Shown: positions 18,436 to 43,382 of the stretch, piece by piece
Layout of the letters: every line of letters starts with the position of its first letter
Numbering within the stretch: the stretch's first letter is position 1
From: Candidatus Roizmanbacteria bacterium RIFCSPHIGHO2_02_FULL_37_13b
GTDB taxonomy: Bacteria; Patescibacteriota; Microgenomatia; UBA1406; HO2-37-13b
Assembly: GCA_001789395.1 (NCBI GenBank)
Contig: MFZK01000014.1
Span: 47,130-111,129, forward strand
Direction of reading: 5' to 3'
Length of the DNA stretch: 64,000 nucleotides
Notes under the pieces: model-generated
The model's input: the letters and a program-made list of their open reading frames with translations, nothing else
Databases searched by the model: none
What the model was told of the DNA's origin: nothing
Position numbers and translations under genes: made by a program

Positions 18436-18561
18436 GCTTGTTCTTCCGACGATGTCCCGTCAAATCGCACCACGAGCCGTGTTCGAATAGAACTGAAAAG
18501 GCGAGTGGTAAGATCGTGTTGGGGCAAGACGCAAGAAACAATCTCCAAAGCGATAAAACCA

Positions 18562-18828
18562 TCAACTCATCATTTGTCTCAATATTCTATAAATATCCTT
18601 TCTATGAGAAATCAGGATAATATACACTATTTGCTTTTGTTGTCGATAGACGATCCGATAATCGCCGACTCTGATGCGAAAGACATCCCGATAGCCTTTG
18701 AGTTTCTCTTCATTTAGATGAATATTGCTATCACGAAGACTTCTTATTTTTTGAGCAATGGCAATTTGATCTATTTTAGTGAGATGACGGAGACTTTTTT
18801 CTGCTTGAGGAGAAAGAATGATCCTCAT
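18562..18828 (-). CDS. type II toxin, RelE/ParE superfamily
   Basis: 88 aa. KLKGYRDVFRIRVGDYRIVYRQQKQIVYIILISHRKDIY is the typical RelE/ParE C-terminal signature. 4-nt overlap with the upstream antitoxin. Confidence 0.85.
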   Translation of the reverse strand: MRIILSPQAEKSLRHLTKIDQIAIAQKIRSLRDSNIHLNEEKLKGYRDVFRIRVGDYRIVYRQQKQIVYIILISHRKDIYRILRQMMS

Positions 18829-19064
18829 ATTCCAAGTTCATTTGCTACATCTTCAAAATTTTTTCCCTTTTTAAAGTCTGCGGAGACTACCGCTTTGTTA
18901 TCAATATAATTCTCAATATAAGCCATAAGCTTTTCATAGAGATCTTTGCCGATAAGATAGGCTTTTACTTGATTTCTTTTTTCAACTGCAATCGGATAAT
19001 CGAATGCACGATCAATAATCTTTGCCGGTCTGGATTTTAGTTGTGAGATAGAAACTGTGTTCAT
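18825..19064 (-). CDS. type II antitoxin, Phd/YefM-like
   Basis: MNTVSISQLKSRPAKIIDRA...PIAVEKRNQVKAYLIGKDLYEKL. The track ORF extends to 19094, but ATG 19064 gives the family-typical N-terminus. Confidence 0.8.
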   Translation of the reverse strand: MNTVSISQLKSRPAKIIDRAFDYPIAVEKRNQVKAYLIGKDLYEKLMAYIENYIDNKAVVSADFKKGKNFEDVANELGI

Positions 19065-19100
19065 ATAGACATAATAATAAGATATTATTAACATATTGTC

Positions 19101-19133
19101 AAGACCTATTATAAGGTCTTATTAATAGACCTT
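19101..19133. promoter_or_regulatory. candidate antitoxin operator: AAGACCT-N6-AGGTCTT inverted repeat plus a third AGACCTT half-site
   Basis: AAGACCT at 19101-19107, AGGTCTT at 19114-19120, AGACCTT at 19127-19133. It sits in the divergent intergenic region just upstream of the TA operon. Confidence 0.5.
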
Positions 19134-19141
19134 ATATAATA

Positions 19142-19170
19142 TTGACTTATAGTTGTTATTATATTACAAT
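19142..19170 (+). promoter_or_regulatory. sigma70-type promoter for the 712-aa gene
   Basis: TTGACT at 19142-19147, a 17-nt spacer, then TACAAT at 19165-19170. Confidence 0.6.
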
Positions 19171-19204
19171 AATTAAACAGATTATAAATTAATAATAGCT
19201 TTTT

Positions 19205-21343
19205 ATGGACGAACATAGGCCTGTTGTTAATTCAACAACTTCTCCAGAACTACAATTATTTAAAGAACCTATAATAGAAGAACAATTACATGCTCTTGAA
19301 AAAGCGCTTCTCGAATATAAGCGACCTGATTCTTTAGATTCAGCATATACAGCCGTTCTACAAATTCCTGGTATCGAAGTATATGGTCTGTCGGTAGATA
19401 GATCAATAGACGAATCAGCAGATGATTTAAAACGAATGACTGATGATATCATGAATGGATCAGAACAGTTCGCTGCTCCACCGTTACTTGCAGGTTCAGC
19501 TCGTTGGACAGATTCAGAAACTGCTGAATTTATGGGTAAACATCCTGCATATAGACCTCAAATAGAATTACCAGAAAAGCCAGAAGAACGAATAAAAGTA
19601 TATTTACCAGTTTTAAACTTGTTGACTCATCGCATTCATCGCGTGGAAGAACAACTGCACGAATCACCGGATTCCACTGACTTGCAGAAGCTTCGAAGAG
19701 ACCTTCATAATCAGCGCAGTATGATGTATCTGGGGTTACTAGTTGAATTTGGAGGTCCGTTTAAACGAGCTGCCGAAGATCAATTATGGCTGTATGATCC
19801 TCGAGAGGATGAGGAAGCGGGATATATGAATCCACAAAAATCAAGGTTAATTGGTGATGTAGTAGAAAGTATTGCTACTGAAGAAGGAGTTGATATAGCA
19901 GAATTAAAACAGAAAGTCCTTGATGCTACATATGATGGCGATCTATCTTTAATTAATACTTTTTTATTTGGGAAACAGGGCGACCATGCGACTCGTCGAG
20001 CACTTGAGGAGATATTAGATCGAAGAGTATCAGATAGACAGTGGCAAGCAAGCGTTTTAAGATCGGCCTATGTGTTGGAATTATTTAGACAGAGATCTGG
20101 CCTCACTCTGGACGATATGATGATGTATAACGGACTTCCTTCCTTAGATGTTACTTTACAAGGATTACGTGATTTTGCTGCAAGCACTCAACTTCATAAT
20201 GATCTTAGTGCTCATATAGCTGTTGAAGCTAAACCAGAACAGGATGCAGCAGGTGAGCAACATAGGCCAATGCAGATGTATCGATTAATAGAGGAACGGG
20301 CGATTAGAAGAGGTTTTGCCGATCGTTTACCTAATAGAGAAAGAGCTACAGAGTATGCTAGAAGCTTGGAAGTCTTATGGAATAAATTATTTCCTTTAAA
20401 TACTAGATTAGCCGGAGATTACTCATGTCATTTATTGACTAGACGAGGCGCCAATCAACGCGCTGGTGCTAATACTTATTATACCGGTGATATGGAGCAT
20501 CCAGGAACCGTTCATGTTTTACATATTCCTACAATGGATACAGTGCAACTTCCCGCATATTTACCTCATGAAAAAGGTCATGAAAAGCATGCTCAAGTTG
20601 TCGCATTAGCAGGTGAGAAAGGTTTAGCAGAACCAAGAGCTTATGAATCTATCCCTGGTGGTGTTAGTGAAGCGATTGCTATGTTACTTGAAACATCATT
20701 TCCTCCAATTGCCGATGAAGAAGGTATTCGATACGTTGGTGATCCTTCTGAGACAAATAAAGATGTCCCACCAGTGGAAAAACCCGATGGCGTAACGACA
20801 AAAGATTTATATCAAACCGTTGTCATGCGAGCATTTCAAGCTATAAAAGGTTTTGCGGGAGGGGAGGCTCGACGTCAGTTGCAGGATTTTGTATCCAGAG
20901 GGACTCAATTTAAACAAAGTGAAGCAGATGATCTTGTTCCTCAAATAGATGCTGAGGTATTAAAACTTGCGAACTCAACCGGAGTGGATTTTGGTGCAAG
21001 AGGTTCCTCATTGGGTTATTTACTGCTTGAATTATGGAATCCTGGTGACGGTAGTATTTATATCGCTAGTAAATTACCGCAAGTAGATTATGGATTAGAA
21101 GAAGAGTCAGGATCAGACGAAGAAGGAGCTGAAGAGACCGATATAGACTTAGCTTATGAATTTACGTCTCGATATGGAGAAAAATGGCTAGATAGGACAG
21201 AAGCTCGACAACATTTAATTGCCTTAATGTATCGAACAGACTCTGAACGTAATTTAGCGAAATTAGCTGAATTTATAAGAACAGCAAAACCTGAGGAAGT
21301 TGAGCAGACCCTTGAAGAACTAGGTCTATCGGATTATATATAA
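19205..21343 (+). CDS. acidic 712-aa putative zinc metallopeptidase (gluzincin, M2/M3/M32-like signature), otherwise unrecognised
   Basis: PHEKGHEKH (HExxH, HExGHxxH as in M3) is followed 30 residues after the second His by GGVSEAIAMLLE. Compare the ACE motif HEAIGDVL and the thimet oligopeptidase motif EAPSQMLE. No signal peptide. D/E-rich and K-poor, unlike neighbouring proteins. Confidence 0.5.
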   Translation: MDEHRPVVNSTTSPELQLFKEPIIEEQLHALEKALLEYKRPDSLDSAYTAVLQIPGIEVYGLSVDRSIDESADDLKRMTDDIMNGSEQFAAPPLLAGSARWTDSETAEFMGKHPAYRPQIELPEKPEERIKVYLPVLNLLTHRIHRVEEQLHESPDSTDLQKLRRDLHNQRSMMYLGLLVEFGGPFKRAAEDQLWLYDPREDEEAGYMNPQKSRLIGDVVESIATEEGVDIAELKQKVLDATYDGDLSLINTFLFGKQGDHATRRALEEILDRRVSDRQWQASVLRSAYVLELFRQRSGLTLDDMMMYNGLPSLDVTLQGLRDFAASTQLHNDLSAHIAVEAKPEQDAAGEQHRPMQMYRLIEERAIRRGFADRLPNRERATEYARSLEVLWNKLFPLNTRLAGDYSCHLLTRRGANQRAGANTYYTGDMEHPGTVHVLHIPTMDTVQLPAYLPHEKGHEKHAQVVALAGEKGLAEPRAYESIPGGVSEAIAMLLETSFPPIADEEGIRYVGDPSETNKDVPPVEKPDGVTTKDLYQTVVMRAFQAIKGFAGGEARRQLQDFVSRGTQFKQSEADDLVPQIDAEVLKLANSTGVDFGARGSSLGYLLLELWNPGDGSIYIASKLPQVDYGLEEESGSDEEGAEETDIDLAYEFTSRYGEKWLDRTEARQHLIALMYRTDSERNLAKLAEFIRTAKPEEVEQTLEELGLSDYI

Positions 21344-21394
21344 ATTTTGAATGAATCTATATAATTAGACATTATTCTAATTTTTCTTCTTCTT

Positions 21395-21423
21395 TTGACT
21401 ACCTATAGTCTACATACTATAAT
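21395..21423 (+). promoter_or_regulatory. near-consensus sigma70 promoter in the island intergenic region
   Basis: TTGACT at 21395-21400, a 17-nt spacer, then TATAAT at 21418-21423. Confidence 0.6.
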
Positions 21424-21429
21424 GCAGTA

Positions 21430-21482
21430 TCCCAATATGAAGCACTGAAGATATATTGCTTATCTTAATGAGTGCTGTTTTT
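21430..21482 (+). ncRNA. candidate short transcript or leader ending in an intrinsic-terminator-like hairpin
   Basis: Starts about 7 nt after the -10 box. Hairpin AGCACT(21441-46)...AGTGCT(21471-76) has an inner AAGATA/TATCTT pairing, followed by GTTTTT. Confidence 0.3.
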
Positions 21483-21679
21483 ATGGGTCGAAGCTCTCTT
21501 TTATTAGAGGAGCGGAGATCCCTACCGAAGTCCCGACTTTGCGTCGGGACGAAGGGGGAATTTTTTTGCACTTTGGCACTTTGACCCAGCTAGAACTCTT
21601 ACTTCGGTCTGAGAGGCTTACAGCCTCCCACTCCCGAGGAGTGAGTCTACTGGGTTTGCAGTGCTACACACTTTTACAA

Positions 21680-21693
21680 CAAGTGAGTTATTT
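21680..21693. repeat. left copy of 14-bp inverted repeat CAAGTGAGTTATTT flanking the high-GC cassette
   Basis: Perfect reverse complement of 23585-23598. Confidence 0.7.
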
Positions 21694-21696
21694 GTA

Positions 21697-21741
21697 TATG
21701 TCATTGCGAGGATCCCGCTCAGCGGGGGACGAAGCAATCTA
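21697..21741 (+). repeat. TGTCAT...ATC hairpin repeat (TGTCATTGCGAG-GATCCCGCTCAGCGGGGGA-CGAAGCAATC)
   Basis: Shares the TGTCAT 5' end, a GC hairpin core (CCCGC/GCGGG) and an ATC 3' end with the two units at 46689-46745. Confidence 0.6.
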
Positions 21742-21756
21742 GTCACATCTTTAAAA

Positions 21757-21814
21757 TATCCAGCAAGGAGATTTGTATATATGTAAACATATATACAGTT
21801 CGACTTGCTGGATA
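21757..21814. repeat. 58-nt nested perfect hairpin
   Basis: Outer stem TATCCAGCAAG (21757-67) pairs with CTTGCTGGATA (21804-14). Inner stem TGTATATATG (21774-83) pairs with CATATATACA (21788-97), with loop TAAA. Confidence 0.85.
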
Positions 21815-21815
21815 A
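21803..21815 (+). repeat. left copy of direct repeat ACTTGCTG(G)ATAA at the low-GC/high-GC transition
   Basis: ACTTGCTGGATAA here and ACTTGCTGATAA at 23604-23615. Confidence 0.6.
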
Positions 21816-21929
21816 GCCAGCAATATAGAGAAAGGAGAGGACTAACCCGAGCCGGCGGTTCCGGCAAAAACCTCGTTTTCAGGCGAGGATCGTAGACTAC
21901 GAATAAATAAAGAAAGGTTTGTTAATCAC

Positions 21930-23432
21930 ATGGACATTCACGTCCACCATGGACCAATCCAGACGACAGCCGCAGACGCAATCGTCGTCAACCTCTTTCA
22001 AGGTGTCACTCACCTGGGTGGTGCCACCGGAGCCGTCGATGCCGCCTTGGGCGGCCAGATCAGCGCCGTGATCGGTAGCGGCGACTTTAAGGGCAAGCTT
22101 GGCGAGACGCTTGTCCTATACGGTCGTGGCGTCATCCCGGCCTCCCGTGTGATCGTGGTGGGTCTCGGCAAGGCCGAGGAATTCATCCTGGACACCGTAC
22201 GGTGTGCCGCGGCCGCGGCAGCCCTCGCTGCCCGCAAGCTGGGTGCCCGGAGTCTCGCCACGATCGTGCATCGGGCCCGCGGCGACCAGTTAGATCTCGC
22301 CGCTGAGGCTCAGGCGCTGGTGGAGGGCACACTGCTCGCACTCTACGAGTTCAAGATCTACAAGACACAGGGGGATGAGACACCTTCCCAGGTAGAGTAC
22401 CTGACGGTGGTCGAGACGGATAGCGACCGGCTCGAGGCCATTAGTTCAGGTATCGTGGCCGGCGAGGCTGTGGCAGCCGGGGTGATCCTTGCTCGCGACC
22501 TGGCCAACCATCCGGGCAACGTGGCCACGCCGACGTACTTGGCAAACCAGGCCGTGGCGTTGGCCGAGCGTCACGGAATGCGTGTCGAGGTCTGGGATGC
22601 CGATCGAATGCGTGCTGAGGGCATGGGCGCGTTCTTGTCGGTCTCGGCCGGCTCGGCCGAGCCGCCGAAGTTCATCATCGTGGAATACGCGCCGACCGGC
22701 GACGCGGTACTCTCCCCCCACGTGTTGGTCGGGAAGGGGGTTACCTTCGATACCGGCGGCATCAGCCTCAAGCCCGGAGCGAAGATGGGTGACATGAAGT
22801 TCGACATGGCTGGCGCCGCCGCCGTGCTGGGGACGATGGAGGCCGTCGGTCGACTCAGTCTTAACAGGCGGATCGTCGGTCTCATCGGAGCCACCGAGAA
22901 CATGCCCGGTGGTAAAGCGACCAAGCCTGGTGACATCGTGAGGACCTTGACCGGCGCCACGGTCGAGATCGTCAACACCGACGCCGAGGGGCGTATGGTG
23001 TTGGCCGATCTCCTCGGATTCGCCCGTCGTCTTCAGCCGGCGGCGGTGGTGGATCTGGCGACGCTGACGGGCGCCATCGTCGTCGCGTTGGGGAGTCAGT
23101 ATGCAGGCCTCTTCGCGAACGACGACGCTTTGGCCTCCGCCTTGCAGGTTGCAGGCGAAGCGACCGGTGAACCTCTCTGGCGCATGCCGTTGGGGAAGCG
23201 ATACGATGACATCGTCAAGAGCAAGGTCGCAGATATGGCCAACTTGGCCCCAGGAAGTCCGGTGCCGGCCGGAGCCGTAAACGGCGCCAAGTTCCTGGAG
23301 CGCTTCGTGCAGTACCCGTGGGCGCACCTCGACATCGCTGCCACCGCCTGGGATGCCAAGGATATCTCCTATATCCCCGAAGGAGCTACCGGATTCGGGG
23401 TGCGGCTGCTCGTCCAGTGGCTGCGTGCCTGA
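21930..23432 (+). CDS. pepA: leucyl aminopeptidase, peptidase family M17; strongly GC-rich relative to the rest of the window
   Basis: 500 aa with the M17 signature NTDAEGRMVLADLL and VGKGVTFDTGGISLKP. GC-rich codon usage produces long spurious antisense ORFs (for example 22446..23327). Confidence 0.93.
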   Translation: MDIHVHHGPIQTTAADAIVVNLFQGVTHLGGATGAVDAALGGQISAVIGSGDFKGKLGETLVLYGRGVIPASRVIVVGLGKAEEFILDTVRCAAAAAALAARKLGARSLATIVHRARGDQLDLAAEAQALVEGTLLALYEFKIYKTQGDETPSQVEYLTVVETDSDRLEAISSGIVAGEAVAAGVILARDLANHPGNVATPTYLANQAVALAERHGMRVEVWDADRMRAEGMGAFLSVSAGSAEPPKFIIVEYAPTGDAVLSPHVLVGKGVTFDTGGISLKPGAKMGDMKFDMAGAAAVLGTMEAVGRLSLNRRIVGLIGATENMPGGKATKPGDIVRTLTGATVEIVNTDAEGRMVLADLLGFARRLQPAAVVDLATLTGAIVVALGSQYAGLFANDDALASALQVAGEATGEPLWRMPLGKRYDDIVKSKVADMANLAPGSPVPAGAVNGAKFLERFVQYPWAHLDIAATAWDAKDISYIPEGATGFGVRLLVQWLRA

Positions 23433-23441
23433 GCCGTCGGT

Positions 23442-23496
23442 GAGGGGGGCGGCGGCAACGTCGCCCCCCTCGGCCGTCCTTCTTCAAAGAAGGACG
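23442..23496 (+). terminator. two GC-rich hairpins downstream of pepA
   Basis: GAGGGGGGCG (23442-51) pairs with CGCCCCCCTC (23462-71). CGTCCTTC (23475-82) pairs with GAAGGACG (23489-96). There is no clear U-tract. Confidence 0.45.
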
Positions 23497-23584
23497 AAAA
23501 AGTGAACCGGTAGGTTCAAAGATTGGAGGATCACAATTTGCATAGATCCATTTTTCCAGTCTAACCAACTTTACCCGGTCCATA

Positions 23585-23598
23585 AAATAACTCACTTG
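23585..23598. repeat. right copy of 14-bp inverted repeat (AAATAACTCACTTG)
   Basis: Perfect reverse complement of 21680-21693. Confidence 0.7.
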
Positions 23599-23603
23599 CT
23601 CAC

Positions 23604-23615
23604 ACTTGCTGATAA
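23604..23615 (+). repeat. right copy of direct repeat ACTTGCTGATAA
   Basis: Matches 21803-21815 except for one G indel. It is also the 5' arm of a local hairpin (23606-23631). Confidence 0.6.
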
Positions 23616-23699
23616 ATTGTTTTTATCGGCAGATGAGAGAAAAAGATAAAGACAAGAGGATTGAGCATGGAGAATAGAGATTAGTAGTTAGAGATTAGA

Positions 23700-24008
23700 T
23701 TATTTTATTAAATTACAACGATGAGTAAGTATATTTCCCCAAGTCATCATACTTTCAGCCCATTCTAGATTATCAGTTGGGCCGCTTAAACCTTTCTTTT
23801 TAAGTTTGGGATATTCGTTTATAAAATTTTGAATAGTTCTTTGAAGAATTATCGGTAAAATCTGTAGATTAATTTTATTTATATATTCTGTATTTTCTTC
23901 CAAAAAAATACCAATCCGTTTTTTTTTGGCATTATAATCATCCGCTGCCCAGTTACCGACGCGGTTCAAATTCATGGCGATGTCCAATATTAACGCTTTG
24001 TTATCCAT
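23700..24008 (-). CDS. hypothetical small helical protein (102 aa)
   Basis: ORF with host-like AT-rich codon usage. No family recognised. Confidence 0.5.
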   Translation of the reverse strand: MDNKALILDIAMNLNRVGNWAADDYNAKKKRIGIFLEENTEYINKINLQILPIILQRTIQNFINEYPKLKKKGLSGPTDNLEWAESMMTWGNILTHRCNLIK

Positions 24009-24013
24009 TTTTT

Positions 24014-24343
24014 CTAAAATAACAATTTATGAACGATAGTATCAAATTTTGCTCTTATTTCTTCACTTAATATGTCCCGACTCGGATTATTTTGTCGAGG
24101 ACGAAGATTGATAATAGAATTGTAATCTATCTCTTTTGTCTGCTTATCAATGCCGCCACCCCAAAGATTTTCTTGTTTAGATCCTTTGTTAAGTAATAAT
24201 TGTTCGCCTTCAACATGTCTTTTCCCCCCACCGGTCATGATTTCTTTGTCAACGTCAACTACCAATTTAATATACCCATCAAAATCTTCCACTATTTTAA
24301 TTATTTCTTCTTCTTTTATAGATTCTCTTATCAAAATAAGCAT
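24014..24343 (-). CDS. small conserved hypothetical protein, resembles the DUF5674 family
   Basis: IKLVVDVDKEIMTGGG..H..GEQLLLNKGSKQENLWGGGI...IINLRP. The pattern matches my recollection of DUF5674 proteins and was not verified. Confidence 0.45.
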   Translation of the reverse strand: MLILIRESIKEEEIIKIVEDFDGYIKLVVDVDKEIMTGGGKRHVEGEQLLLNKGSKQENLWGGGIDKQTKEIDYNSIINLRPRQNNPSRDILSEEIRAKFDTIVHKLLF

Positions 24344-24431
24344 AAGGCAAATTATAGCAATTAATAAGCGGTTTCTCTATGTATTGTATTTGAAGAGTTC
24401 AAGGTATGTTCTAATTATGATTTTTATTGTC

Positions 24432-24460
24432 TTGACAAGATAAAATAATTGATCTATACT
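24432..24460 (+). promoter_or_regulatory. sigma70-type promoter for the M29-like gene
   Basis: TTGACA at 24432-24437, a 17-nt spacer, then TATACT at 24455-24460. An AAGG-type SD precedes ATG 24481. Confidence 0.6.
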
Positions 24461-24480
24461 GGCAAAGGAAAAACAAGGTT

Positions 24481-25632
24481 ATGACAGCACAACCTGAAGC
24501 ACCAATTTCGCAAGAACTTCTCCAACAAGCCGCTGATAATTATTATCATTGTTTAAATTTACCAAGAGGAAGCAATGTCATCGTGGTATCAGAATCAATA
24601 CCAGAGGGTGGACGAAATGTTGATGCAAGTGTCCTGTTGAGAAATACATTAGCAGACCAGATTAGACAAAAAGCTGAAAGAGATGACCATTCGGTAGCTC
24701 ATTTATCATTTAACAATGAAACAACCGAAGATGAATTCCGCGATTCAACATCAAGAACGCTTTCAGAATATTGTTTAGAAGACGGCGATAAACCACCGGC
24801 GTCAACTACTATAGTATATTTGGGAGATTATTGGGCAAATAGAGGCGGTTTGTATCAGGCAGCAAACGAACATGGATTAAGGCATGATATTAGGATTGCC
24901 GGTTCAATCGGTCTAACTTCAGGAGATATCCGTGTTTTGAGCGCGCTCACAAGAGAAAAACAAAGAGAGATGTCGCAAGTATCAAATGTACTCGAAGCCA
25001 AATTTCAGAGGAATCCAAAGGGATTTATTCAGGTTAAGACTTTGTCAGCAGAAGGTCATGAGCATTTATTAAATCTTCCCTATGACTGTCATCAAGCTCC
25101 CTTCAAAACTGATCCCGGTCGAATTGATGATGAACATCCAATAAAAATGGGCGCCTTTCGATTTCATAATATTCCTGGCGGCCATTTTTTTGGAGCTCCC
25201 TATGAATTTAAACATACAAATGGTAAATTTGTAGCACAGGGCATTGTCTTTAATGTAGTAGATGGTTTGATTGCAGATATTACTGATGATATAGAGGGAT
25301 CGTATGAAAAATTAGATCCAGATCAGCGACGAGCATTAGATTATGTAAAGGGCGGTGGTGGATTACCCTTGTCAGAATTGGGAATCGGATTACATCGGCA
25401 GGTTAATGTCCCAAGTTTTTCAGATTGCTCAATGTTGACCCGGACTAAATCAGGAGTATATTTTGGATTAGGTGAAGCTCATAGCGACACTTCAGAGGCT
25501 GAGCAAATTAGAGGTCTACCAAGCGGCCGCGTTCATTATAATTTTATCCTTTCTGATCCTGAGCTTAGCTTATTAACGCCATCTTTAGATGATCCAATTC
25601 CTATCTATCAACATCAAGCAACGGCTGATTAA
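24481..25632 (+). CDS. divergent M29 (aminopeptidase T/PepS)-like protein
   Basis: FHNIPGGHFFGAPYE aligns with the M29 motif N-[IL]-P-x-x-E-[VI]-F-T-A-P. ELGIGLH and YFGLGEAH resemble later M29 blocks. Acidic and K-poor, like the 712-aa protein. Confidence 0.4.
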   Translation: MTAQPEAPISQELLQQAADNYYHCLNLPRGSNVIVVSESIPEGGRNVDASVLLRNTLADQIRQKAERDDHSVAHLSFNNETTEDEFRDSTSRTLSEYCLEDGDKPPASTTIVYLGDYWANRGGLYQAANEHGLRHDIRIAGSIGLTSGDIRVLSALTREKQREMSQVSNVLEAKFQRNPKGFIQVKTLSAEGHEHLLNLPYDCHQAPFKTDPGRIDDEHPIKMGAFRFHNIPGGHFFGAPYEFKHTNGKFVAQGIVFNVVDGLIADITDDIEGSYEKLDPDQRRALDYVKGGGGLPLSELGIGLHRQVNVPSFSDCSMLTRTKSGVYFGLGEAHSDTSEAEQIRGLPSGRVHYNFILSDPELSLLTPSLDDPIPIYQHQATAD

Positions 25633-25638: not shown

Positions 25639-27147
25639 TTAACCAATAATCTGTTTTATTTCTTTGTCTAAAAGCAAAGTCGCTGCAAGTAAGGATGCAT
25701 GTTTGTTTTTCAGCCAAAGTTGTTGATTTGTGTGTTTTAGAATAACTGCCTTTATGGTACTATTCATTGCTCGCTTTCCAGGACTACCCGCCGATAGATA
25801 TTTATTTAAGATATTTAATGGATCCTGCCAGCTAGTTATTTGCTCTTTTGTCACAGTCACATTTATTTTTTCTTCATTTGTAGCTTTTTTAAATCCTTCA
25901 AAGTCAATTTTATCTTTGTTTTGGCTATATTTAATAGCCTTTTCGATTACGATTTTCCCGCTTCTAAAGGGTATATTATATTCTTGACAAAAAATTTCAA
26001 GCAGTGATGTTGCGCCGATAAAGCCCTTATTGGCTAATTCCATCATTCTTTGTTCATTAACTTTTAATTCACTGATAATACCAGCCATGATATTTGGCGC
26101 CAGAGTCGTTTCATTGATGATATCCATGATAATGTACTTCGTCCACTGTGAATCGCGGTTGTAGCCGATGAAAGCGCCCTTGCCTGACATGAGAAGACTC
26201 TGTAGCAGTCCTTGTGCATAAGCGGTTTTCCCTTTAATGACTTCCAATGTATCCGGATTTTTCTTTTGAGGCATGATTGAGCTGCCGGTTGAATAAAGAT
26301 CGGATATTTCTAACATACCAAATTCCTTCATCGAAAGAACAATTAACGTTTCACTCATTATTGATAAATGAGTCATAAGGCTGGTTATACAATAGGCGAC
26401 GTCAGCCTCCGGTTCATATCGGCAGGTGATAGCGTCAAGACTGTTTTCATCAGTTTCGGCAAAACCTAATAGTTGAGTTGTCAGATTACGATCAATATTA
26501 AAGCTTGTGCCATAAGAAGCTGCGTTGCCAAGAGGATTTTTATCAATTATTTGATAAAAGGCCATAAATTTTTCAATATCACGAAGTATCATCGATGAAA
26601 AACCCAAAAGAATATGGCCAAATGTAGTTATCATCGCATGTTGATGGTGAGTAAAGCCAGGCATAACTGTAGTTTGATACTGTTTAGCTTTCTGATTAAG
26701 CATTTCGACTAATTTCAAACAGCTAAAAACATAATTTAAAACCTGATCTTTCAAATAAAGCCTTACATCACAAACAACTTGGTCATTTCTGCTTCTTGCG
26801 GTATGGAGTTTTCCTACCTTTTCAATGCCATCATTATCAATGAGCCATGATTCGATATTGGTATGTACATCTTCTTTTTCCTTATGAAGAATAAATTGAC
26901 CATTGTTTGCCAGTTTTTCAATCTCACAAAGCCCTTTTAAAATTATCTTCACATCATCTTTGCCTATGATTTTTTGCTTAGAAAGCATGAGAGCATGAGC
27001 TTTATTCACCGCAATATCATAGGGAATTAAAGCATAATCGGCTGCTTTAACATCTTGGACGTCTCTACCGGCACAAAACTCAACAGCCTCCTCAAGAGGT
27101 GTTTTTTCGAATGCTGATCCCCAGAGCTGAGAGATTTTTTTTGCCAT
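25639..27147 (-). CDS. argH: argininosuccinate lyase (fumarate-lyase superfamily)
   Basis: GSSIMPQKKNPDTLE signature. N-terminal LWGSAF...YDIAVNKAHALML is ArgH-like. Confidence 0.8.
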   Translation of the reverse strand: MAKKISQLWGSAFEKTPLEEAVEFCAGRDVQDVKAADYALIPYDIAVNKAHALMLSKQKIIGKDDVKIILKGLCEIEKLANNGQFILHKEKEDVHTNIESWLIDNDGIEKVGKLHTARSRNDQVVCDVRLYLKDQVLNYVFSCLKLVEMLNQKAKQYQTTVMPGFTHHQHAMITTFGHILLGFSSMILRDIEKFMAFYQIIDKNPLGNAASYGTSFNIDRNLTTQLLGFAETDENSLDAITCRYEPEADVAYCITSLMTHLSIMSETLIVLSMKEFGMLEISDLYSTGSSIMPQKKNPDTLEVIKGKTAYAQGLLQSLLMSGKGAFIGYNRDSQWTKYIIMDIINETTLAPNIMAGIISELKVNEQRMMELANKGFIGATSLLEIFCQEYNIPFRSGKIVIEKAIKYSQNKDKIDFEGFKKATNEEKINVTVTKEQITSWQDPLNILNKYLSAGSPGKRAMNSTIKAVILKHTNQQLWLKNKHASLLAATLLLDKEIKQIIG

Positions 27148-27186
27148 TTATCCTATTATAAACAATTGATCAACCAAAACGATTAT

Positions 27187-27375
27187 TAAAATAAGCAGGT
27201 GTCGCGACCGGAGGGGGTCCCAGTCAGCGCGGAGTTTCGGCGCTTGATACCGCTTTTTTCCGCAAACTTCACCCCACGGGTGAACCCAAGTTATGCTTCA
27301 AAAAGGGTATCTGCGCTTGAAACTGATCAACGAGCACTGGCTGGGACGAGGGAGTGACAGAATCTGCTTATTTTA
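27187..27375. ncRNA. GC-rich ~189-nt structured element closed by a 12-bp inverted repeat (candidate ncRNA, 3'-UTR structure or MITE)
   Basis: TAAAATAAGCAG (27187-98) pairs with CTGCTTATTTTA (27364-75). An internal 9-bp helix CCCAGTCAG/CTGGCTGGG and several local hairpins are present. GC is well above the flanks. No class was identified. Confidence 0.35.
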
Positions 27376-28770
27376 TTCACCCGTTCCGACGAGGTATATT
27401 GCGCGCCACGGTTTGAAATTAGAAAAAAAGTCTTTATTTATCGCCTCTTTCCCGTCTTTTACTACCGTGTAGTTGAAGACTGTCTTTGCACCCCACGCTG
27501 CCCAATCGACTTGTTTGACTTCGCCTTTTTTTAAAGTTGGATCATCCTGATTAAGTGGCTCAGGTGGAGGAACTGAATCATAAAGCCTAGCTCCGGATAT
27601 CCGGGCGATCCGGCCATCTTTTTTTCCATAAAAAACAAACTTTAAATCCATCGTTGTTTTGTCTAATTCTCTTTGAATTAGAATATATGCCGGCGTATCA
27701 TTAGCAAATCTAAAATCAGTCGAGGGACTGAAAACCGTGGCATCAAAACCGGGTTTTGAATCATTTTCATAATAGTGGACCCTGTAAGCGTGAGCTGTCC
27801 TTTTCGTGATTGGTAAGCCTGAATTTAAAGCCGCGCGAAAAAGAGTCGTTGAAACTTGGCAGACTCCGCCACCGTCGCCCAAAATGGTTCGTCCGTCTTT
27901 AATAATGTAGGCTTGTAGATACCCTGTATCGGCAGAAATATCACCAATGGTATTATTGAATGAAAAATTCTCATCTTTAGGAATAAGTACCCCATCAAAT
28001 TTTGAAGATGCCAAAATCACGTTATGGATTCTGCCTGGAATTGAACCTTTATAATTCGATTTTCCCTCTCCAATCTTTTCGACAATTCCATAACTATTTA
28101 TGGAAGCAAGAGTAATTTTTGGGCTTATAATTTGATCTTTGATAATAATTTTAAAATATTGCTGTTTGTCCACTTTGCTTACAATATCTTTAAACTGTGC
28201 TATTGCGGCTTCTTTGTCTATCTGCAATCCATTCTGTTCAATTTTAAACGCCGTGACTTTTCCATTCTCAAAGCGAAATAGAGCATCTTGGGGTTTGACA
28301 TTATAGGTAACTTCAAGATCACTTAGACTGTCATACATTGGTTTTTCAGTGAAGCTTAATATGCTCTTAAAAGTAAATTTCCTTAAATTAAGTAGTGACT
28401 CTAACCGCTTCTGCCATTTGAGGATTAAATTTTGATCACGACCTATTCCGTAAGCCTGATTTGCTGTCTCGTCAATGTTTAAATCAAAATTAATGTCTTG
28501 TCCTGAAATCGTTGCAACTTGTAAATCATGATAATTAATTTCAAGTGTAATGTCTCTCAATCGTTTTTTTTTAGTAACTAAATATTTTTTTACGTCATTG
28601 ACATTTTTTCCACCAAAATTTACATTATCCACGACGACATTAGGGTAAATCTTGCCCTGTAAATTAGATACCTTATTTGATATAAAGACGATAAAAATTA
28701 GGGTGACAACAAAAAAGACAAAACTAGCCACAAAAAACGATTTTAAGACGAAGATAACAATTTTTTTCAT
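27373..28770 (-). CDS. VanW-domain protein with N-terminal membrane anchor
   Basis: GGGVCQVSTTLFRAALNSGLPITKRTAHAYRVHYY is the VanW core. Confidence 0.85.
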   Translation of the reverse strand: MKKIVIFVLKSFFVASFVFFVVTLIFIVFISNKVSNLQGKIYPNVVVDNVNFGGKNVNDVKKYLVTKKKRLRDITLEINYHDLQVATISGQDINFDLNIDETANQAYGIGRDQNLILKWQKRLESLLNLRKFTFKSILSFTEKPMYDSLSDLEVTYNVKPQDALFRFENGKVTAFKIEQNGLQIDKEAAIAQFKDIVSKVDKQQYFKIIIKDQIISPKITLASINSYGIVEKIGEGKSNYKGSIPGRIHNVILASSKFDGVLIPKDENFSFNNTIGDISADTGYLQAYIIKDGRTILGDGGGVCQVSTTLFRAALNSGLPITKRTAHAYRVHYYENDSKPGFDATVFSPSTDFRFANDTPAYILIQRELDKTTMDLKFVFYGKKDGRIARISGARLYDSVPPPEPLNQDDPTLKKGEVKQVDWAAWGAKTVFNYTVVKDGKEAINKDFFSNFKPWRAIYLVGTGE

Positions 28771-33156: not shown

Positions 33157-35388
33157 ATGGCTAAATCTACCGCTAAATTTAATAATTTAGACTATATAAT
33201 TAAAGTATTTATCTACCAAATACTGCTTTTTTTTATCAATTTTTTGATCTTCACAGGAGACCTCATTATCTTATCTATAAGATATATACTAAGGCTAGTT
33301 ATTATCTTACCGATAAATCAGCTAAAAAAGCTAATTCTGAAGCTATCAAGAAAGGTAAAACAAATATTTTCGCTGGTTATTAAACCTAAACTTCCATTAA
33401 TAGATTTTTTCAAGATAAAATATTTTGTTATCGGTTTCTTAATTGCTTTTATATTCATACTATTATTTATAGGCATTGGTTTTATAAAGTCTTTACCTGA
33501 TCCCAAATTGATTGGAAAAGTAAATTTTGCCGTCTCGACACAAATTCTGGATCGAAAAGGAAGATTATTGTACGAAGTCTATGGGAATGAAAATCGTATC
33601 CCAATAAAAATTGACACGTTACCTAAATATGTAATTTCTGCAACTATTGCCATTGAAGATAAGGATTTTTATAAGCACAATGGCGTTTCTATTTGGGGTG
33701 GGATATTAAGAGCATTGAAAGACAGTATTATAAAAAAAGATTTACAAGGAGGTTCGACTATAACTCAACAATTGGTTAAAGCTTCTCTTCTTACTCCGGA
33801 AAGAACCATCCAACGCAAAATTAAAGAAATGATTATTGCGCTTCAAGTCGAAAAAATTTACTCGAAAAGTCAAATAATGGAAATGTATTTAAATCAAGTT
33901 CCTTATGGAGGCACTGCCTATGGTATTCAACAAGCAGCTAAAGTCTATTTTGATAAAAATGCTAAAGATCTGACCTTGAGCGAGATAGCATATTTAGCCG
34001 GATTACCCAAGGCACCTAGTATCTATTCTTACTACGCAAATCCGGAATATGCCAAATCAAGAAGAAATGAAGTTTTGACAAAGATGCTCCAGCTTAAATT
34101 CATTACAAGAAGCGAGTTTGATAGAGAGTCGCCTCTTCCATTAAAGATCGTTCCTTTAAAACAATTAATTAGAGCGCCTCATTTTGTATTTTACGTAAAA
34201 AATATTCTAGAGCAAAAATATGGTATTAGATCGGTTGAAACAAGAGGTTTTCGAGTTCGAACAAGTTTAGATCTGGATATCCAAGATGAAGCCGAACTTA
34301 TTTTATCAGAAGAACTCAAAAAAATTGAAAATCTAAAGGTTAATAATGGTGCGATTTTGATCACTCATCCTTCAACAGGTGAAGTCTTAGCGATGGTAGG
34401 ATCCAAAAATTATTATGAGGACGGTGTCGGAGCATTCAATGTCACCACGTCCCAAAGGCAACCAGGATCATCTATAAAGCCGTTAATGTATTCGTTGGCG
34501 TTGACTAAGGGGTTTACAGCTGTATCTATGGTTGATGATTCTCCAATAATATTTAAGATTCCTGGTTCAAAGCCCTATCGACCAATCAATTACGATGGTA
34601 CTTTTCACGGACTGATAACGCTACGATCTGCCTTGGCTAATTCTTATAATGTTCCGGCTGTTAAAATGTTGAATACTCTGGGTGTCAAGAATTTCATATA
34701 TCATGCACGACAAATGGGAATAACCACTTGGGAAGACGAAAGTCGATATGGATTGTCTTTAACGCTCGGAGGGGGAGAAGTGAAAATGACTGATATGGCT
34801 GTTGCCTACGGCGTATTTGCCAATTCAGGTAATAAAGTAAATCTAAATCCTATTCTAGATATTTATGACTATCAAGGGTATCCAATAGAAGTGAATACAA
34901 AAGTCGATCGGACTCATGTTCTTGATGAAGGAGTTAGTTATATTATCTATGATATTTTGTCTGATGCAAAAGCTCGACTGGCTGCATTTGGTAATAATTC
35001 ACCACTTAATATTCAACAGTTTAAGGTTGCCGTGAAGACGGGGACAACAAATGAAAAAAAAGATAACTGGACTATCGGTTTTACTCCAAAATTTCTTGCA
35101 GCAGTTTGGGTTGGTAATAACGACAATACACCAATGAATCCATTGCTGACATCAGGTATCACAGGTGCTGCACCGATCTGGAGTCGTGTGATGGCAAGCT
35201 TGCTATCTAAGAGTATTTCATCTGAGTTTGACGAAAATCCGCTAGCTACAAATACTTATCAAATACCAACTAATATTGTTGAAAAAAAATGTGGTGGTAT
35301 CGCAGAATATTTCGTTAAGGGAACAGAAAAAGCCCCATGTCAGCCAGAATTTCTTTCACCTACACCCACAACAATACAACAGCAGTAA
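33157..35388 (+). CDS. class A penicillin-binding protein (PBP1A-type transglycosylase/transpeptidase), copy 1
   Basis: GT51 motifs EDKDFYKHNG, GGSTITQQLVK and RKIKE. TPase motifs SSIKP and KTGTT. The track ORF starts at TTG 33115 and the first ATG is 33157. Confidence 0.92.
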   Translation: MAKSTAKFNNLDYIIKVFIYQILLFFINFLIFTGDLIILSIRYILRLVIILPINQLKKLILKLSRKVKQIFSLVIKPKLPLIDFFKIKYFVIGFLIAFIFILLFIGIGFIKSLPDPKLIGKVNFAVSTQILDRKGRLLYEVYGNENRIPIKIDTLPKYVISATIAIEDKDFYKHNGVSIWGGILRALKDSIIKKDLQGGSTITQQLVKASLLTPERTIQRKIKEMIIALQVEKIYSKSQIMEMYLNQVPYGGTAYGIQQAAKVYFDKNAKDLTLSEIAYLAGLPKAPSIYSYYANPEYAKSRRNEVLTKMLQLKFITRSEFDRESPLPLKIVPLKQLIRAPHFVFYVKNILEQKYGIRSVETRGFRVRTSLDLDIQDEAELILSEELKKIENLKVNNGAILITHPSTGEVLAMVGSKNYYEDGVGAFNVTTSQRQPGSSIKPLMYSLALTKGFTAVSMVDDSPIIFKIPGSKPYRPINYDGTFHGLITLRSALANSYNVPAVKMLNTLGVKNFIYHARQMGITTWEDESRYGLSLTLGGGEVKMTDMAVAYGVFANSGNKVNLNPILDIYDYQGYPIEVNTKVDRTHVLDEGVSYIIYDILSDAKARLAAFGNNSPLNIQQFKVAVKTGTTNEKKDNWTIGFTPKFLAAVWVGNNDNTPMNPLLTSGITGAAPIWSRVMASLLSKSISSEFDENPLATNTYQIPTNIVEKKCGGIAEYFVKGTEKAPCQPEFLSPTPTTIQQQ

Positions 35389-41123: not shown

Positions 41124-43382
41124 ATGTACAAGTTAAAAAAGCTTATTGGAATAATCAAATCATCTCCAAAAGCTCTGCTATTTCATCCAAAGATTATATC
41201 ACTGATTTTAATCATCCTGGTGGTTTTTGGCCTTTCATCATTTTATGTCGTAATTTTAAAGGACCTGCCTAATCCACAAGGCTTGAAGAATTATAAAGTA
41301 ATTCCTGTTTCTTCAGAGATAATGGATCGAAATGGCAAATTGCTCTATGATATCTTTGATAAAGAAAACAGAATTCCGATAAGAATTAAGGATTTGCCTG
41401 AATATGTAAAACAAGCGACAATTGCCATTGAAGATAAAGAATTTTATAAACATGGAGGGATTTCACTTGTCGGGGGGATGATTAGAGCTTTAAAAGATAC
41501 AATTATTTTAAGAAAAGGCTTGCAAGGTGGATCTACAATTACTCAACAATTAGTAAAATCTGCTCTTCTGTCACCGGAGCGGACCGTCACAAGAAAGATC
41601 AAGGAAGTAATTTTAGCACTGTGGACTGAACAAATTCTCAAAAAAGATGAGATTTTGGAGCTATATCTAAATCAGGTGCCCTACGGAGGCTCTGCTTATG
41701 GAATAGAGCAAGCATCAAGAATCTATTTTAATAAAAGCGCAAAGGCGTTGACATTGCCTCAAGCAGCTCTACTGGCGGGATTGCCTCGAGCGCCGAGCCG
41801 TTATTCTCCTTATTCTGATCCAGAGGTTGCAAAAAGGAGAAGAAACGATGTATTGGCGGAAATGGCAAAGTTGAAATTTATTACTAATGAGCAAAAAGAT
41901 AACGCAATAAGAGAAGATCTCGAAATAGAAACTTTTAAAACTAAAATAAATGCACCGCATTTTGTTTTCTACGTAAGATCAATCCTTGAGAAAGAATATG
42001 GTGCTTCTATTGTTGAAGAAGGAGGGCTAAAAGTCACAACAAGCCTGGATTTGGATTTACAAAAACAGGCGGAAGCGACTTTATCTGCAGAACTTGAAAA
42101 AATAAAAAAATTAAATGTTGGGAATGGTGCTGCATTGGTGACGCGTCCTACGACTGGAGAAATATTAGCTATGATTGGGTCCCGTGATTATTTTTCTTCA
42201 CCTTCAGGCACCTTTAATGTGACGACAGCGTTGAGACAACCAGGTTCTTCAATAAAACCGATAAATTACGCCATTGGTATTGATCGAAAGTTGGTCACAC
42301 CAGCATCTGTGTTTCTGGACGTAAAATCATGTTTTACAGCTCCAGGTCAGCCAAAAGCATATTGTCCCGTCAATTATGACGGCAACTACCATGGTTTAGT
42401 GCAACTTAGATTCGCACTGGGTAATTCATACAATATTCCGGCGGTTAAGATGCTGCAGTTAAATGGCGTCGAGAATTTTGTCGCTTCTTCATCCAGTTTC
42501 TTATTTACTAGCTTTAAAGATCCAACCCGCTATGGATTGTCTCTGACTTTAGGTGGAGGGGAAGTAACAATGGTTGATATGGCTCAAGCGTTTTCCAGCT
42601 TTGCCAATGAGGGGATACCAAAAAAATTAGTTGCGGTTCTAAAAGTTGAAGATAAAAATGGTAATGTACTGTATGAATATAAAGATAATAATCTTGTTAA
42701 AAATATAAGAGAGCCAATAAATTATCCAAATTACTTAAATATCACTGGTAATCGGGCAATTTCACGGGACACAGCTTTTATAATTTCTCATATTTTGCTT
42801 GATAATAATGCCAGATCTGCTGCTTTTGGAGCAAGAAGTCAATTGAATATTCCCAAACACGTCGCTGTTTCGGTCAAAACTGGTACAACCAACGATCTAC
42901 GAGACAACTGGACAATTGGCTATACCCCAAACTTTTTGGTGGCTATTTGGGTAGGTAACAATGATAATAAACCTATGTCGCGAGTAGTCTCAGGAGTGAC
43001 TGGAGCAGCGCCAATCTGGAATGGAATCATGAGTTTTGTCATAAAAGATCAACCTGATTTATGGCCAAGGAAACCGGATAGTGTTGTTGGTCGGCAGGTA
43101 TGCAGTGATAGTGGACTACTTATGGCTAGATCTCCCGAAGGAGTCGAAAGCTGTCACTCTAGATTTGAATATTTTATAAAAGGATTTGAATCGGTTTCAT
43201 CGAGTGTTAAGTCAACAAAGGAATTTATTCCTGTAAGTAAAGATACCGGCAAGATGACGACTGTGGAAGATCCGTCTCACGAGATGCAGGAAAAAACAGT
43301 AATTAAAGATGGTATTTCTACTTATTGCGTTGATTGTGTCAATGATTTCGGTCCGAGCCCAACCCTGACGCCGACACCGTGA
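41124..43382 (+). CDS. class A penicillin-binding protein (PBP1A-type), copy 2
   Basis: EDKEFYKHGG, GGSTITQQLVK, SSIKP and KTGTT motifs. Paralogue of 33157..35388. Confidence 0.92.
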   Translation: MYKLKKLIGIIKSSPKALLFHPKIISLILIILVVFGLSSFYVVILKDLPNPQGLKNYKVIPVSSEIMDRNGKLLYDIFDKENRIPIRIKDLPEYVKQATIAIEDKEFYKHGGISLVGGMIRALKDTIILRKGLQGGSTITQQLVKSALLSPERTVTRKIKEVILALWTEQILKKDEILELYLNQVPYGGSAYGIEQASRIYFNKSAKALTLPQAALLAGLPRAPSRYSPYSDPEVAKRRRNDVLAEMAKLKFITNEQKDNAIREDLEIETFKTKINAPHFVFYVRSILEKEYGASIVEEGGLKVTTSLDLDLQKQAEATLSAELEKIKKLNVGNGAALVTRPTTGEILAMIGSRDYFSSPSGTFNVTTALRQPGSSIKPINYAIGIDRKLVTPASVFLDVKSCFTAPGQPKAYCPVNYDGNYHGLVQLRFALGNSYNIPAVKMLQLNGVENFVASSSSFLFTSFKDPTRYGLSLTLGGGEVTMVDMAQAFSSFANEGIPKKLVAVLKVEDKNGNVLYEYKDNNLVKNIREPINYPNYLNITGNRAISRDTAFIISHILLDNNARSAAFGARSQLNIPKHVAVSVKTGTTNDLRDNWTIGYTPNFLVAIWVGNNDNKPMSRVVSGVTGAAPIWNGIMSFVIKDQPDLWPRKPDSVVGRQVCSDSGLLMARSPEGVESCHSRFEYFIKGFESVSSSVKSTKEFIPVSKDTGKMTTVEDPSHEMQEKTVIKDGISTYCVDCVNDFGPSPTLTPTP

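What the first reader, a model, noticed from the sequence alone, without database searches (positions are those of the whole stretch)
27187..27375. GC-rich 189-nt structured element between the VanW gene and argH
This interval is far more GC-rich than its surroundings, which often marks structural RNAs in AT-rich genomes. It is closed by a perfect 12-bp inverted repeat, TAAAATAAGCAG and CTGCTTATTTTA. The right arm overlaps the VanW stop codon. Inside are a 9-bp helix CCCAGUCAG/CUGGCUGGG and purine-rich internal loops on both strands. There are also local hairpins: AGCGC...GCGCU, GAUACC..UUUUU/AAAAA..GGUAUC and UUCACCC-cac-GGGUGAA. argH appears to have its own TATAAT 7 nt from its ATG, so the element need not be the argH leader. 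I could not match it to SRP RNA (no GNRA/AGCA helix-8 motif), tmRNA, RNase P, a T-box or a cobalamin riboswitch. A 6S-like RNA, a 3'-UTR-derived sRNA and a MITE with 12-bp terminal inverted repeats all remain open.
Basis: seen in the sequence. Interest (0 to 1): 0.55.

Follow-up and report, generated by a model that had tools for sequence, protein, structure and literature searches.

The report
Nested MITE-like palindromic repeat insertion
The GC-rich hairpin between the VanW-like gene and argH is one copy of a small family of palindromic repeats that have inserted, one inside another, at several places in this Roizmanbacteria (CPR) genome, including in frame inside a gene, so it is selfish repeat DNA of the MITE / Rickettsia-palindromic-element kind and not a dedicated RNA gene.

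Summary
Window 27187-27375 is a 189-nt, 52 % GC rod hairpin in a 36 % GC genome. It is closed by a perfect 12-bp inverted repeat that overlaps the VanW stop codon. It folds far better than shuffles (z -6.5 as RNA and as DNA) and matches no Rfam family.

It is not a single-copy RNA gene. It is absent from the same VanW-argH spacer in two relatives that keep a short spacer (26 and 17 nt). Its parts recur at least 7 times on a second contig of what is almost certainly the same MAG (L055).

It is composite. An ~80-100-nt palindromic module (A) sits in the apex of an outer palindromic module (B). B also occurs alone. A third module (C) replaces the A apex in other copies, in either orientation.

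Three copies lie inside a 1109-aa membrane-protein gene and are read in frame. Eight orthologues lack these inserts. Copies differ by compensatory Watson-Crick changes that keep the hairpins.

Best reading: a lineage-restricted, nested MITE/RPE-like repeat family. Here it probably also acts as a 3' hairpin for the VanW mRNA, which is inference. Target-site duplications and the mobilising enzyme remain unresolved.

The parts
27187..27375 (.). Whole composite palindromic insertion (189 bp): module B with module A nested in its apex
   Evidence: Rod hairpin with z -6.55 as RNA and -6.38 as DNA. Absent from the same spacer in relatives L027 and L054.
27187..27198 (.). Terminal inverted repeat, left copy (TAAAATAAGCAG)
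   Evidence: The inner part AAGCAG is shared with the ends of other B copies.
27364..27375 (.). Terminal inverted repeat, right copy (CTGCTTATTTTA). It contains the VanW stop codon (27373-27375).
27187..27230 (-). Module B, 3' arm in B orientation (…GCGCTGACTGGGA…TCGCGACACCTGCTTATTTTA)
   Evidence: Matched by the profile of B copies (window 27234-27193, minus strand). Alignment A5.
27331..27375 (-). Module B, 5' arm in B orientation (TAAAATAAGCAGATTCTGTCAC…CCAGCCAGTGCTCG)
   Evidence: Profile hit at 27368-27311, minus strand. Homologous to L055 11347, 6690 and 5815.
27231..27330 (+). Module A (long form) nested in the apex of B
   Evidence: Stand-alone B copies have only CTTCGT at this position.
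27243..27317 (+). Module A core, the part repeated most faithfully elsewhere
   Evidence: 96 % identical to L055 616-690. The slightly longer stretch 27238-27318 is 94 % identical to L055 1913-1993. 81-84 % identical to L055 3903-3998.
27373..28770 (-). VanW-like gene (PG_binding_4 + VanW). The element starts at its stop codon.
25639..27147 (-). argH (Lyase_1; argininosuccinate lyase), downstream neighbour
27155..27160 (-). TATAAT 7 nt upstream of the argH ATG. It lies outside the insertion and is conserved in relative L027.

Best explanation
The element is one locus of a lineage-restricted family of small, non-coding, GC-rich palindromic repeats in Candidatus Roizmanbacteria RIFCSPHIGHO2_02_FULL_37_13b. 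These repeats are MITE-like and behave like Rickettsia palindromic elements.

At least three hairpin modules (A, B, C) have spread to several sites. They have also inserted into the centre of one another. The window copy is module A nested in the apex of module B, and it landed exactly at the stop codon of the VanW-like gene.

The hairpin itself is the conserved feature, because copies differ by compensatory Watson-Crick changes. That suggests the palindrome is what the unknown mobilising machinery recognises.

Shown:
- multicopy;
- nested modular build;
- absence from orthologous sites;
- in-frame copies inside a gene;
- structure-preserving divergence.

Inferred:
- mobility by a trans-acting transposase;
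- at this locus the -75 to -88 kcal/mol hairpin followed by a U-rich stretch now ends or stabilises the VanW transcript, while argH keeps its own promoter.
For: 1. Insertion. In L027 (ArgH 78 % identical, same sample) the VanW stop and the argH ATG are 26 nt apart, with the same VanW C-terminus and the same TATAAT. In L054 the gap is 17 nt.

2. Multicopy. blastn and profile searches find A at L055 616-690 (96 %), 1913-1993 (94 %) and 3903-3998. They find B alone at 11347-11440 and 6690-6782. They find composite copies at about 1330-1560 and 5815-5990.

3. Same genome. L055 carries OGK21544 and the window carries OGK20624, both named Roizmanbacteria RIFCSPHIGHO2_02_FULL_37. Both loci also occur in JGI sample 3300025311.

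4. Nesting by independent events. Module C (L055 1408-1477 and 5891-5960, direct repeats) has opposite orientation relative to B in its two hosts. One A copy carries an extra 20-nt hairpin.

5. In-frame copies. P0124 (1109 aa) has three inserts that 8 orthologues lack, and these coincide with the DNA copies. Both A copies inside the ORF use the one frame of A that has no stop codon.

6. Second empty site. In the P0125 relative the genes that flank the L055-6690 copy overlap, leaving no spacer.

7. Structure kept. In A, 5 of 29 pairs changed on both sides, 91 % of cells are paired, and only 7 of 500 shuffles reach this. In B, 8 of 24 pairs are compensatory.

8. No Rfam family matches the window element or any L055 module.
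Against: - No unambiguous target-site duplication. TA or AAT are both possible at the window copy, which is meaningless in AT-rich DNA. The ends of the other copies are fuzzy.
- No transposase or parent IS with the same ends was seen, although only about 90 kb of this genome could be read.
- Copies are clumped: 1 in about 74 kb of the window contig against at least 7 in 11 kb of L055.
- Nothing related turned up in 241 million metagenome records by one exact 18-mer, in plasmids or phages, or in viral contigs.
- Only one representative among 1.84 billion proteins contains the A peptide.
- The + strand folds 11-14 kcal/mol better than the - strand, with 4 G-U pairs against 1. This could hint at an RNA-level role, but 4:1 is not significant.
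Confidence: 0.72

Rival explanations
1. These are functional repeated extragenic hairpins (REP/BIME- or ERIC-like), not transposons. The modules are kept because they terminate or stabilise transcripts or bind a host protein. They spread by recombination, gene conversion or palindrome-templated repair, not by a transposase.
For: - Compensatory changes preserve the hairpins.
- Most copies sit right after stop codons or in spacers (window; L055 3903, 5815, 6690, 11347).
- The window hairpin is followed by a U-rich stretch.
- No transposase or target-site duplication was found.
Against: - Three copies lie inside an ORF and are translated, where a terminator would be harmful.
- Modules nest inside each other in either orientation.
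- The simple terminator scan finds none at the element.
- Relatives manage with spacers of 17-26 nt and no hairpin.
Confidence: 0.15
2. It is a dedicated small RNA gene on the + strand (6S-like, or another rod-shaped regulatory RNA), antisense to the VanW-argH transcript.
For: - The + strand folds better (-95 against -83.7 kcal/mol; 4 G-U pairs against 1).
- TTGATC-N15-TAAAAT lies at its 5' edge.
Against: - It is multicopy, nested, and found in frame inside a gene.
- It is absent in relatives.
- No 6S or other Rfam signal appears even at E<=10.
- There is no large central bubble. The largest loops are about 11x8 nt near the base and a 9-nt bulge.
- The promoter scan reports none.
- The TAAAAT would place the transcript start inside the closing stem.
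- Module B keeps a conserved U.G on the opposite strand.
Confidence: 0.04
3. It is a cis-regulatory leader of argH, or a 3'-UTR-derived sRNA of the VanW gene, that evolved in place.
For: Its position between the two co-oriented genes.
Against: - argH has a TATAAT 7-8 nt from its ATG, also in the relative that lacks the element, so its mRNA is probably leaderless.
- The sequence is shared with unrelated loci.
Confidence: 0.03
4. It is a remnant of foreign high-GC DNA that came in with the neighbouring horizontally acquired island (the GC-rich pepA at 21930-23432).
For: - A 65 % GC gene with GC-rich hairpins lies 4 kb away.
- The element's GC content is foreign to this genome.
Against: - There is no sequence similarity between the element and the island.
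- argH, which is native and syntenic, lies between them.
- Copies on another contig are not next to GC-rich genes.
Confidence: 0.05

Closest known systems
Rickettsia palindromic elements (RPEs)
   Same: They are short (~100-150 bp), non-coding palindromic repeats in several families within a small genome. They are inserted both in spacers and in frame inside protein-coding genes, so that a conserved peptide is added. No transposase is known. (RPE properties are taken from the review PMC10969869; matching behaviour here is.)
   Different: - No sequence relationship was tested or is expected.
- The host is a CPR/Patescibacteria bacterium.
- The elements are much more GC-rich than the host (0.52 against 0.36).
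- The modules are nested in each other's apex.
- Very few copies have been seen so far, and they are clumped on one contig.
Bacterial MITEs (e.g. Correia/NEMIS, ERIC, RUP, QMITE, Nezha)
   Same: Small size, terminal inverted repeats, fold-back structure, multiple copies, filled and empty sites between relatives, and occasional in-frame fusions.
   Different: The target-site duplication is not resolved. No parent IS is identified. The whole length is palindromic, not only the ends. The family shows compensatory evolution along the whole stem.
REP / BIME repeats with RAYT (TnpA-REP) transposases
   Same: They are extragenic palindromes that occur as mosaics of modules, often after stop codons, and they influence mRNA ends.
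   Different: REPs are 20-40 nt with a GTAG head, and they are not found translated inside genes. Here the modules are 70-100 nt, no GTAG head is visible in the copies read, and no RAYT gene was seen in the DNA available.
6S RNA
   Same: Length of about 190 nt and an overall rod shape.
   Different: No covariance-model match. No large central bubble. Multicopy and inserted in ORFs. Not conserved in relatives.

Membership tests
MITE | Small (<~500 bp) and without a transposase ORF | tested here: met
   It is 189 bp. Only short frames of 20-59 aa are present.
MITE | Terminal inverted repeats | tested here: met
   The window copy has perfect 12-bp terminal inverted repeats. Other B copies share ..AGCAG / CTGC.. 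ends plus complementary outer parts.
MITE | Several dispersed copies in the genome | tested here: met
   There is 1 composite copy in the window and at least 7 module copies on contig L055. The two contigs are assigned to the same MAG by accession numbers and a shared sample.
MITE | Filled versus empty sites | tested here: met
   The spacer is empty in L027 and L054. Eight orthologues of P0124 lack the inserts. The flanking genes overlap in the P0125 relative. All comparisons are between species, not between alleles.
MITE | Target-site duplication flanking the inverted repeats | tested here: inconclusive
   TA (with 10-bp repeats) or AAT (with 11-bp repeats) is possible at the window copy. The ends of the other copies are ambiguous.
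MITE | A parent IS or transposase with matching ends | not testable with these tools
   Only about 90 kb of the genome could be read. No transposase domain appeared in 30 window proteins scanned or in the precomputed Pfam hits for L055 and L058.
RPE-like palindromic element | In-frame insertion in protein-coding genes that adds a conserved peptide | tested here: met
   P0124 residues ~1-40, ~255-325 and ~446-466 correspond to the DNA copies. The peptide ..IPLF.A.FTPRVNP.YA.KRVSAL occurs twice.
RPE-like palindromic element | Sequence homology to Rickettsia RPE families | not tested
   No RPE library was available. Homology is not expected across phyla.
6S RNA | Match to the 6S covariance models | tested here: not met
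   No hit even at E<=10 on either strand.
6S RNA | Large central bubble flanked by a closing stem and a terminal stem | tested here: not met
   The fold is an almost continuous helix, with 70 pairs in 189 nt.
REP/BIME | 20-40-nt palindromic unit with a conserved GTAG head and an associated RAYT gene | tested here: not met
   The modules are 70-100 nt. No GTAG head is visible in the copies read, whose ends are ..AGCAG/CTGC..; no pattern search for GTAG was run. No RAYT gene was seen, but genome coverage is partial.
Intrinsic terminator | Short GC-rich stem-loop directly followed by a T run | tested here: not met
   The consensus scan finds none at the element. On the minus strand the long hairpin is followed by TTATTTTAATAATCGTTTT, which is U-rich but not canonical.

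The most novel reading that the evidence does not exclude
The modules may form a new class of structure-targeting, self-nesting hairpin elements. Each module would insert preferentially into the apical loop or centre of an existing palindrome, such as another module or a terminator-like hairpin. Insertion would go through a single-stranded or cruciform intermediate recognised by a still unidentified enzyme. This would explain four observations:
- A sits in the apex of B.
- C sits in the apex of A.
- An extra hairpin sits near the apex of one A copy.
- The outer stems differ between copies yet stay complementary.
If so, a streamlined CPR genome hosts an active mobile element type that also remodels proteins by in-frame insertion.
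Probability: 0.15. Interest if true: 0.7.

Novelty: new member of a known kind. Interest (0 to 1): 0.38.

Why it matters
- It removes a false candidate. This is not a missing 6S, SRP or other housekeeping RNA of a CPR bacterium.
- It documents that a small, streamlined Patescibacteria genome carries a family of nested palindromic repeats that even sit in frame inside a conserved membrane-protein gene. This behaviour is best known from Rickettsia. No paper in the searched library describes such elements in CPR.
- Such repeats break metagenome assemblies at exactly these places. They can create spurious ORFs and 'GC-rich structured RNA' calls, so recognising them matters for annotating MAGs.
- If the apex-targeting idea holds, the family would be a handle on a hairpin-directed insertion mechanism.

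Tried and rejected
- **Rfam on the whole window and, permissively, on the locus.** Nothing relevant. The same holds for L055. This rejects 6S, SRP, tmRNA, RNase P, T-box and riboswitches.
- **Genome-contig scan with ArgH.** The best relative is 52 % identical, and none has the element.
- **Metagenome-contig scan with the exact 18-mer GTCCCAGTCAGCGCGGAG.** It gave 25 loci, all chance matches in high-GC contigs. The organism's own JGI contigs were not returned, so this negative result is weak.
- **blastn against plasmids and phages.** No match.
- **Viral contig scans** for the inverted-repeat pair and for the A core. None found.
- **One query of all six reading frames joined together** against the 5.8-billion-protein index. 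Nothing scored, so the search was wasted.
- **The 280-nt VanW-argH spacer of relative L053.** It looked like a parallel insertion but is an unstructured 70-aa ORF (z +2).
- **Look-ups that returned no DNA:** P0121 (a protein-level assembly), P0125 (file too large), and the left end of the window.
- **The near-match TAAAATAAGCAT at 40464.** It lies inside a gene and is chance.
- **Contig breaks in the middle of the element.** I first read them as proof of a repeat. They are equally compatible with loss of coverage at a strong hairpin, since the end of L005 is poly-G noise. I therefore do not count them as independent evidence.
- **Strand assignment from G-U pairs.** The 4:1 split is too small to use.

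Full report
**The object**

Window 27187-27375 lies between two minus-strand genes. One is a VanW-like gene (27373-28770; Pfam PG_binding_4 + VanW). The other is argH (25639-27147; Lyase_1).

- The interval has 52 % GC against 36 % for the window.
- Its ends are a perfect 12-bp inverted repeat, and the right arm contains the VanW stop codon.
- The whole interval folds into one long rod with 70 base pairs in 189 nt.
- The + strand with flanks folds at -95 kcal/mol, z -6.55. The - strand gives -83.7 kcal/mol, z -3.87.
- With DNA parameters the element gives z -6.38.

**Not a known RNA**

Rfam 15 gives no gathering-level hit anywhere in the 64 kb. At E<=10 the only hit in 27000-27600 is a chance snoRNA match inside argH, and nothing falls in the element. 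The simple promoter and terminator scan finds nothing in the element. The + strand has four G-U pairs and the - strand one, which is too few to assign a strand.

**Organism**

The ArgH protein is identical to argininosuccinate lyase of Candidatus Roizmanbacteria bacterium RIFCSPHIGHO2_02_FULL_37_13b, a CPR/Microgenomates MAG; contig sample names (e.g. an ANAN16 scaffold) suggest the Rifle aquifer. The window is core genome: the ribosomal-protein operon, secY, rpoA, penicillin-binding proteins, glycolysis, the his and suf operons. No transposase was found.

**It is an insertion**

- The nearest relative with DNA is L027 (ArgH 78 % identical, same sample). Its VanW C-terminus is homologous (…PWRAIFLVGTGE*), and it has the same AATTGT-TATAAT box 8 nt before the argH ATG. 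Only 26 nt separate its stop codon from the argH start, and there is no hairpin.
- In L054 (ArgH 58 % identical) the gap is 17 nt.
- L053 (59 %) has a 280-nt gap, but it holds an unrelated, unstructured small ORF.

The conserved TATAAT 7-8 nt from the ATG indicates that argH has its own promoter and is probably leaderless. So the element is not an argH leader.

**It is multicopy**

I translated the stop-free + frame of the element (52 aa) and searched 1.84 billion protein representatives. One real hit came back, P0121, in which 30 residues are 90 % identical. P0121 is a protein-level assembly without DNA.

Its 87 %-identical homologue P0124 is OGK21544, named as coming from Roizmanbacteria RIFCSPHIGHO2_02_FULL_37. 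It is encoded on contig L055. OGK21544 and the window's OGK20624 are about 900 accession numbers apart. Both loci also occur in JGI sample 3300025311. They are therefore very probably the same MAG.

blastn and profile searches of L055 give the following:

| Part of the element | Position in L055 | Identity |
|---|---|---|
| Inner part | 616-690 | 96 % |
| Inner part | 1913-1993 | 94 % |
| Inner part | 3903-3998 | 81-84 % |
| Outer arms alone | 11347-11440 and 6690-6782 | – |
| Composite, diverged copy | ~1330-1560 | – |
| Composite, diverged copy | ~5815-5990 | – |

The window itself has only the one copy. Ten further kb of its contig have none. About 280 kb from other CPR and unrelated genomes have none.

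**Anatomy**

The window element is composite.

- **Module B** is written here in its own orientation, which is the window's minus strand: ..AAGCAGATTCTGTCAC…CCAGTGCTC[apex]GCGCTG…TCGCGACACCTGCTT..
  - Stand-alone B copies have the apex CTTCGT.
  - In the window, module A (27231-27330) occupies that apex.
- **Module A** has a core at 27243-27317: CTTGATACC…TTCACCCCACGGGTGAA…GGTATCTGCGCT.
- **Module C** is a third 70-nt hairpin (L055 1408-1477 and 5891-5960). It replaces the A apex in the two composite L055 copies.
  - The two C copies are direct repeats, while their B hosts are on opposite strands. C therefore entered independently and in either orientation.
- One A copy (L055 3898) carries an extra 20-nt hairpin next to its apex.

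**Copies inside a gene**

P0124 is a 1109-aa polytopic membrane protein conserved across Microgenomates. Aligned with eight orthologues, it has three extra segments: residues ~1-40, ~255-325 and ~446-466. These coincide with the DNA copies at L055 616-690, ~1330-1560 and 1913-1993. They are read in frame, and the locus translates exactly to P0124. Both A copies use the one frame of A that has no stop codon.

The related strain protein P0121 has the same outer insert at site 2 but a different interior. This hints at turnover of the nested module, with the caveat that P0121 is a protein-level assembly.

In the P0125 relative the genes on either side of the L055-6690 copy overlap. That gives another empty site.

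**The hairpin is what is conserved**

- Across the four A copies, 91 % of cells are paired. Five of 29 pairs changed on both sides and none changed on one side only. Just 7 of 500 column shuffles reach this, and slid registers fall to 32-49 % paired.
- Across four B copies, 8 of 24 predicted pairs show compensatory changes. A U.G pair is invariant.
- The outer, AT-rich parts of the B inverted repeats differ between copies yet stay complementary.
- Nearly all changes go from one Watson-Crick pair to another. This fits a constraint that acts on both strands (DNA hairpin or cruciform, or a symmetric binding site) at least as well as an RNA constraint.

**Interpretation**

The family has the defining behaviour of bacterial MITEs:

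- small and non-coding;
- terminal inverted repeats;
- multicopy;
- filled and empty sites.

It also behaves like Rickettsia palindromic elements, with several palindromic families inserted in frame into ORFs (review PMC10969869).

Two things are missing: a clear target-site duplication (TA or AAT are both possible at the window copy) and a mobilising enzyme.

At this locus the likely consequence is a very stable 3' hairpin followed by UUAUUUUAAUAAUCGUUUU on the VanW mRNA. That would end or protect the transcript while argH uses its own promoter. This step is inference.

**Limits**

- Only about 90 kb of the genome could be read.
- The single metagenome scan returned only chance matches, and it did not return the organism's own contigs.
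- Six of 18 contigs carrying argH break inside the element. This is compatible with a repeat, but also with loss of sequence coverage at a strong hairpin.
- No paper in the library describes such repeats in CPR bacteria.

**Verdict**

The structure is real. It is not a dedicated RNA gene. It is a new family of a known kind of element, the nested MITE/RPE-like palindromic repeat, and its host is mildly surprising.

Noticed in passing
window 21930-23432 (flanks 21480-21930 and 23433-23520): The Peptidase_M17 (leucyl aminopeptidase) gene has about 65 % GC in a 36 % GC genome, so it looks like a recent horizontal acquisition. Its flanks hold GC-rich hairpins, for example GAGGGGGGCGGCG/CGTCGCCCCCCTC at 23442-23471 and a 28-nt inverted repeat at 21757-21814. 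No Rfam family matches.
   Followed up: partly
window ~18500-25630: In relatives L053 and L054, argH directly abuts the rpsI-rplM-rplQ-rpoA cluster. Here a ~7-kb block lies between them: a 712-aa ORF, the GC-rich pepA, a 102-aa ORF, DUF5674 and a 383-aa ORF. It appears to be a lineage-specific island.
   Followed up: partly
window 50332-50630: The 300-nt spacer between a Trp-repressor-like gene (50023-50331, minus strand) and hisG (50631) is one of the most strongly folding stretches of the window. It has UUCG-capped hairpins and a terminator-like CCCCGCC…GCGGGTTTTTTT. This may be an unannotated his-operon leader or attenuator. Only sub-threshold Rfam hits were found.
   Followed up: partly
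L055 8366-8461: Two tandem 48-nt units, each a GC-rich hairpin (TTAACCCCCGAGG…CCTCGGGGG), sit in a spacer. This is another small palindromic repeat family, unrelated in sequence to modules A, B and C.
   Followed up: no
L055 3647-3697, 4626-4764: AT-rich repeats of the type CAAAGCTCAAAGTTCAAAATTCAAA occur in direct and inverted copies around the peptide deformylase and L28 genes.
   Followed up: no
window 27249-27342 (ends of contigs L003-L008 and L010-L013); L055 1-577: Independent assemblies (MEGAHIT, Logan, JGI, ANAN16) break in the middle of the element. All three contigs carrying P0124 end within about 250-580 nt upstream of that gene. One contig end is poly-G noise. The cause is either repeat collapse or hairpin-related coverage loss.
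   Followed up: partly
protein P0125 (JGI 3300048101), residues ~255-300: A 44 %-identical orthologue of P0124 from another Microgenomates genome has its own unrelated ~45-aa insert in the same loop as insert 2 of P0124. This could be a parallel insertion hotspot. No DNA was available.
   Followed up: no
window 33548-34404 and 41323-42182: Two paralogous class-A penicillin-binding-protein genes (Transgly + Transpeptidase) share 66 % nucleotide identity over 875 nt.
   Followed up: no
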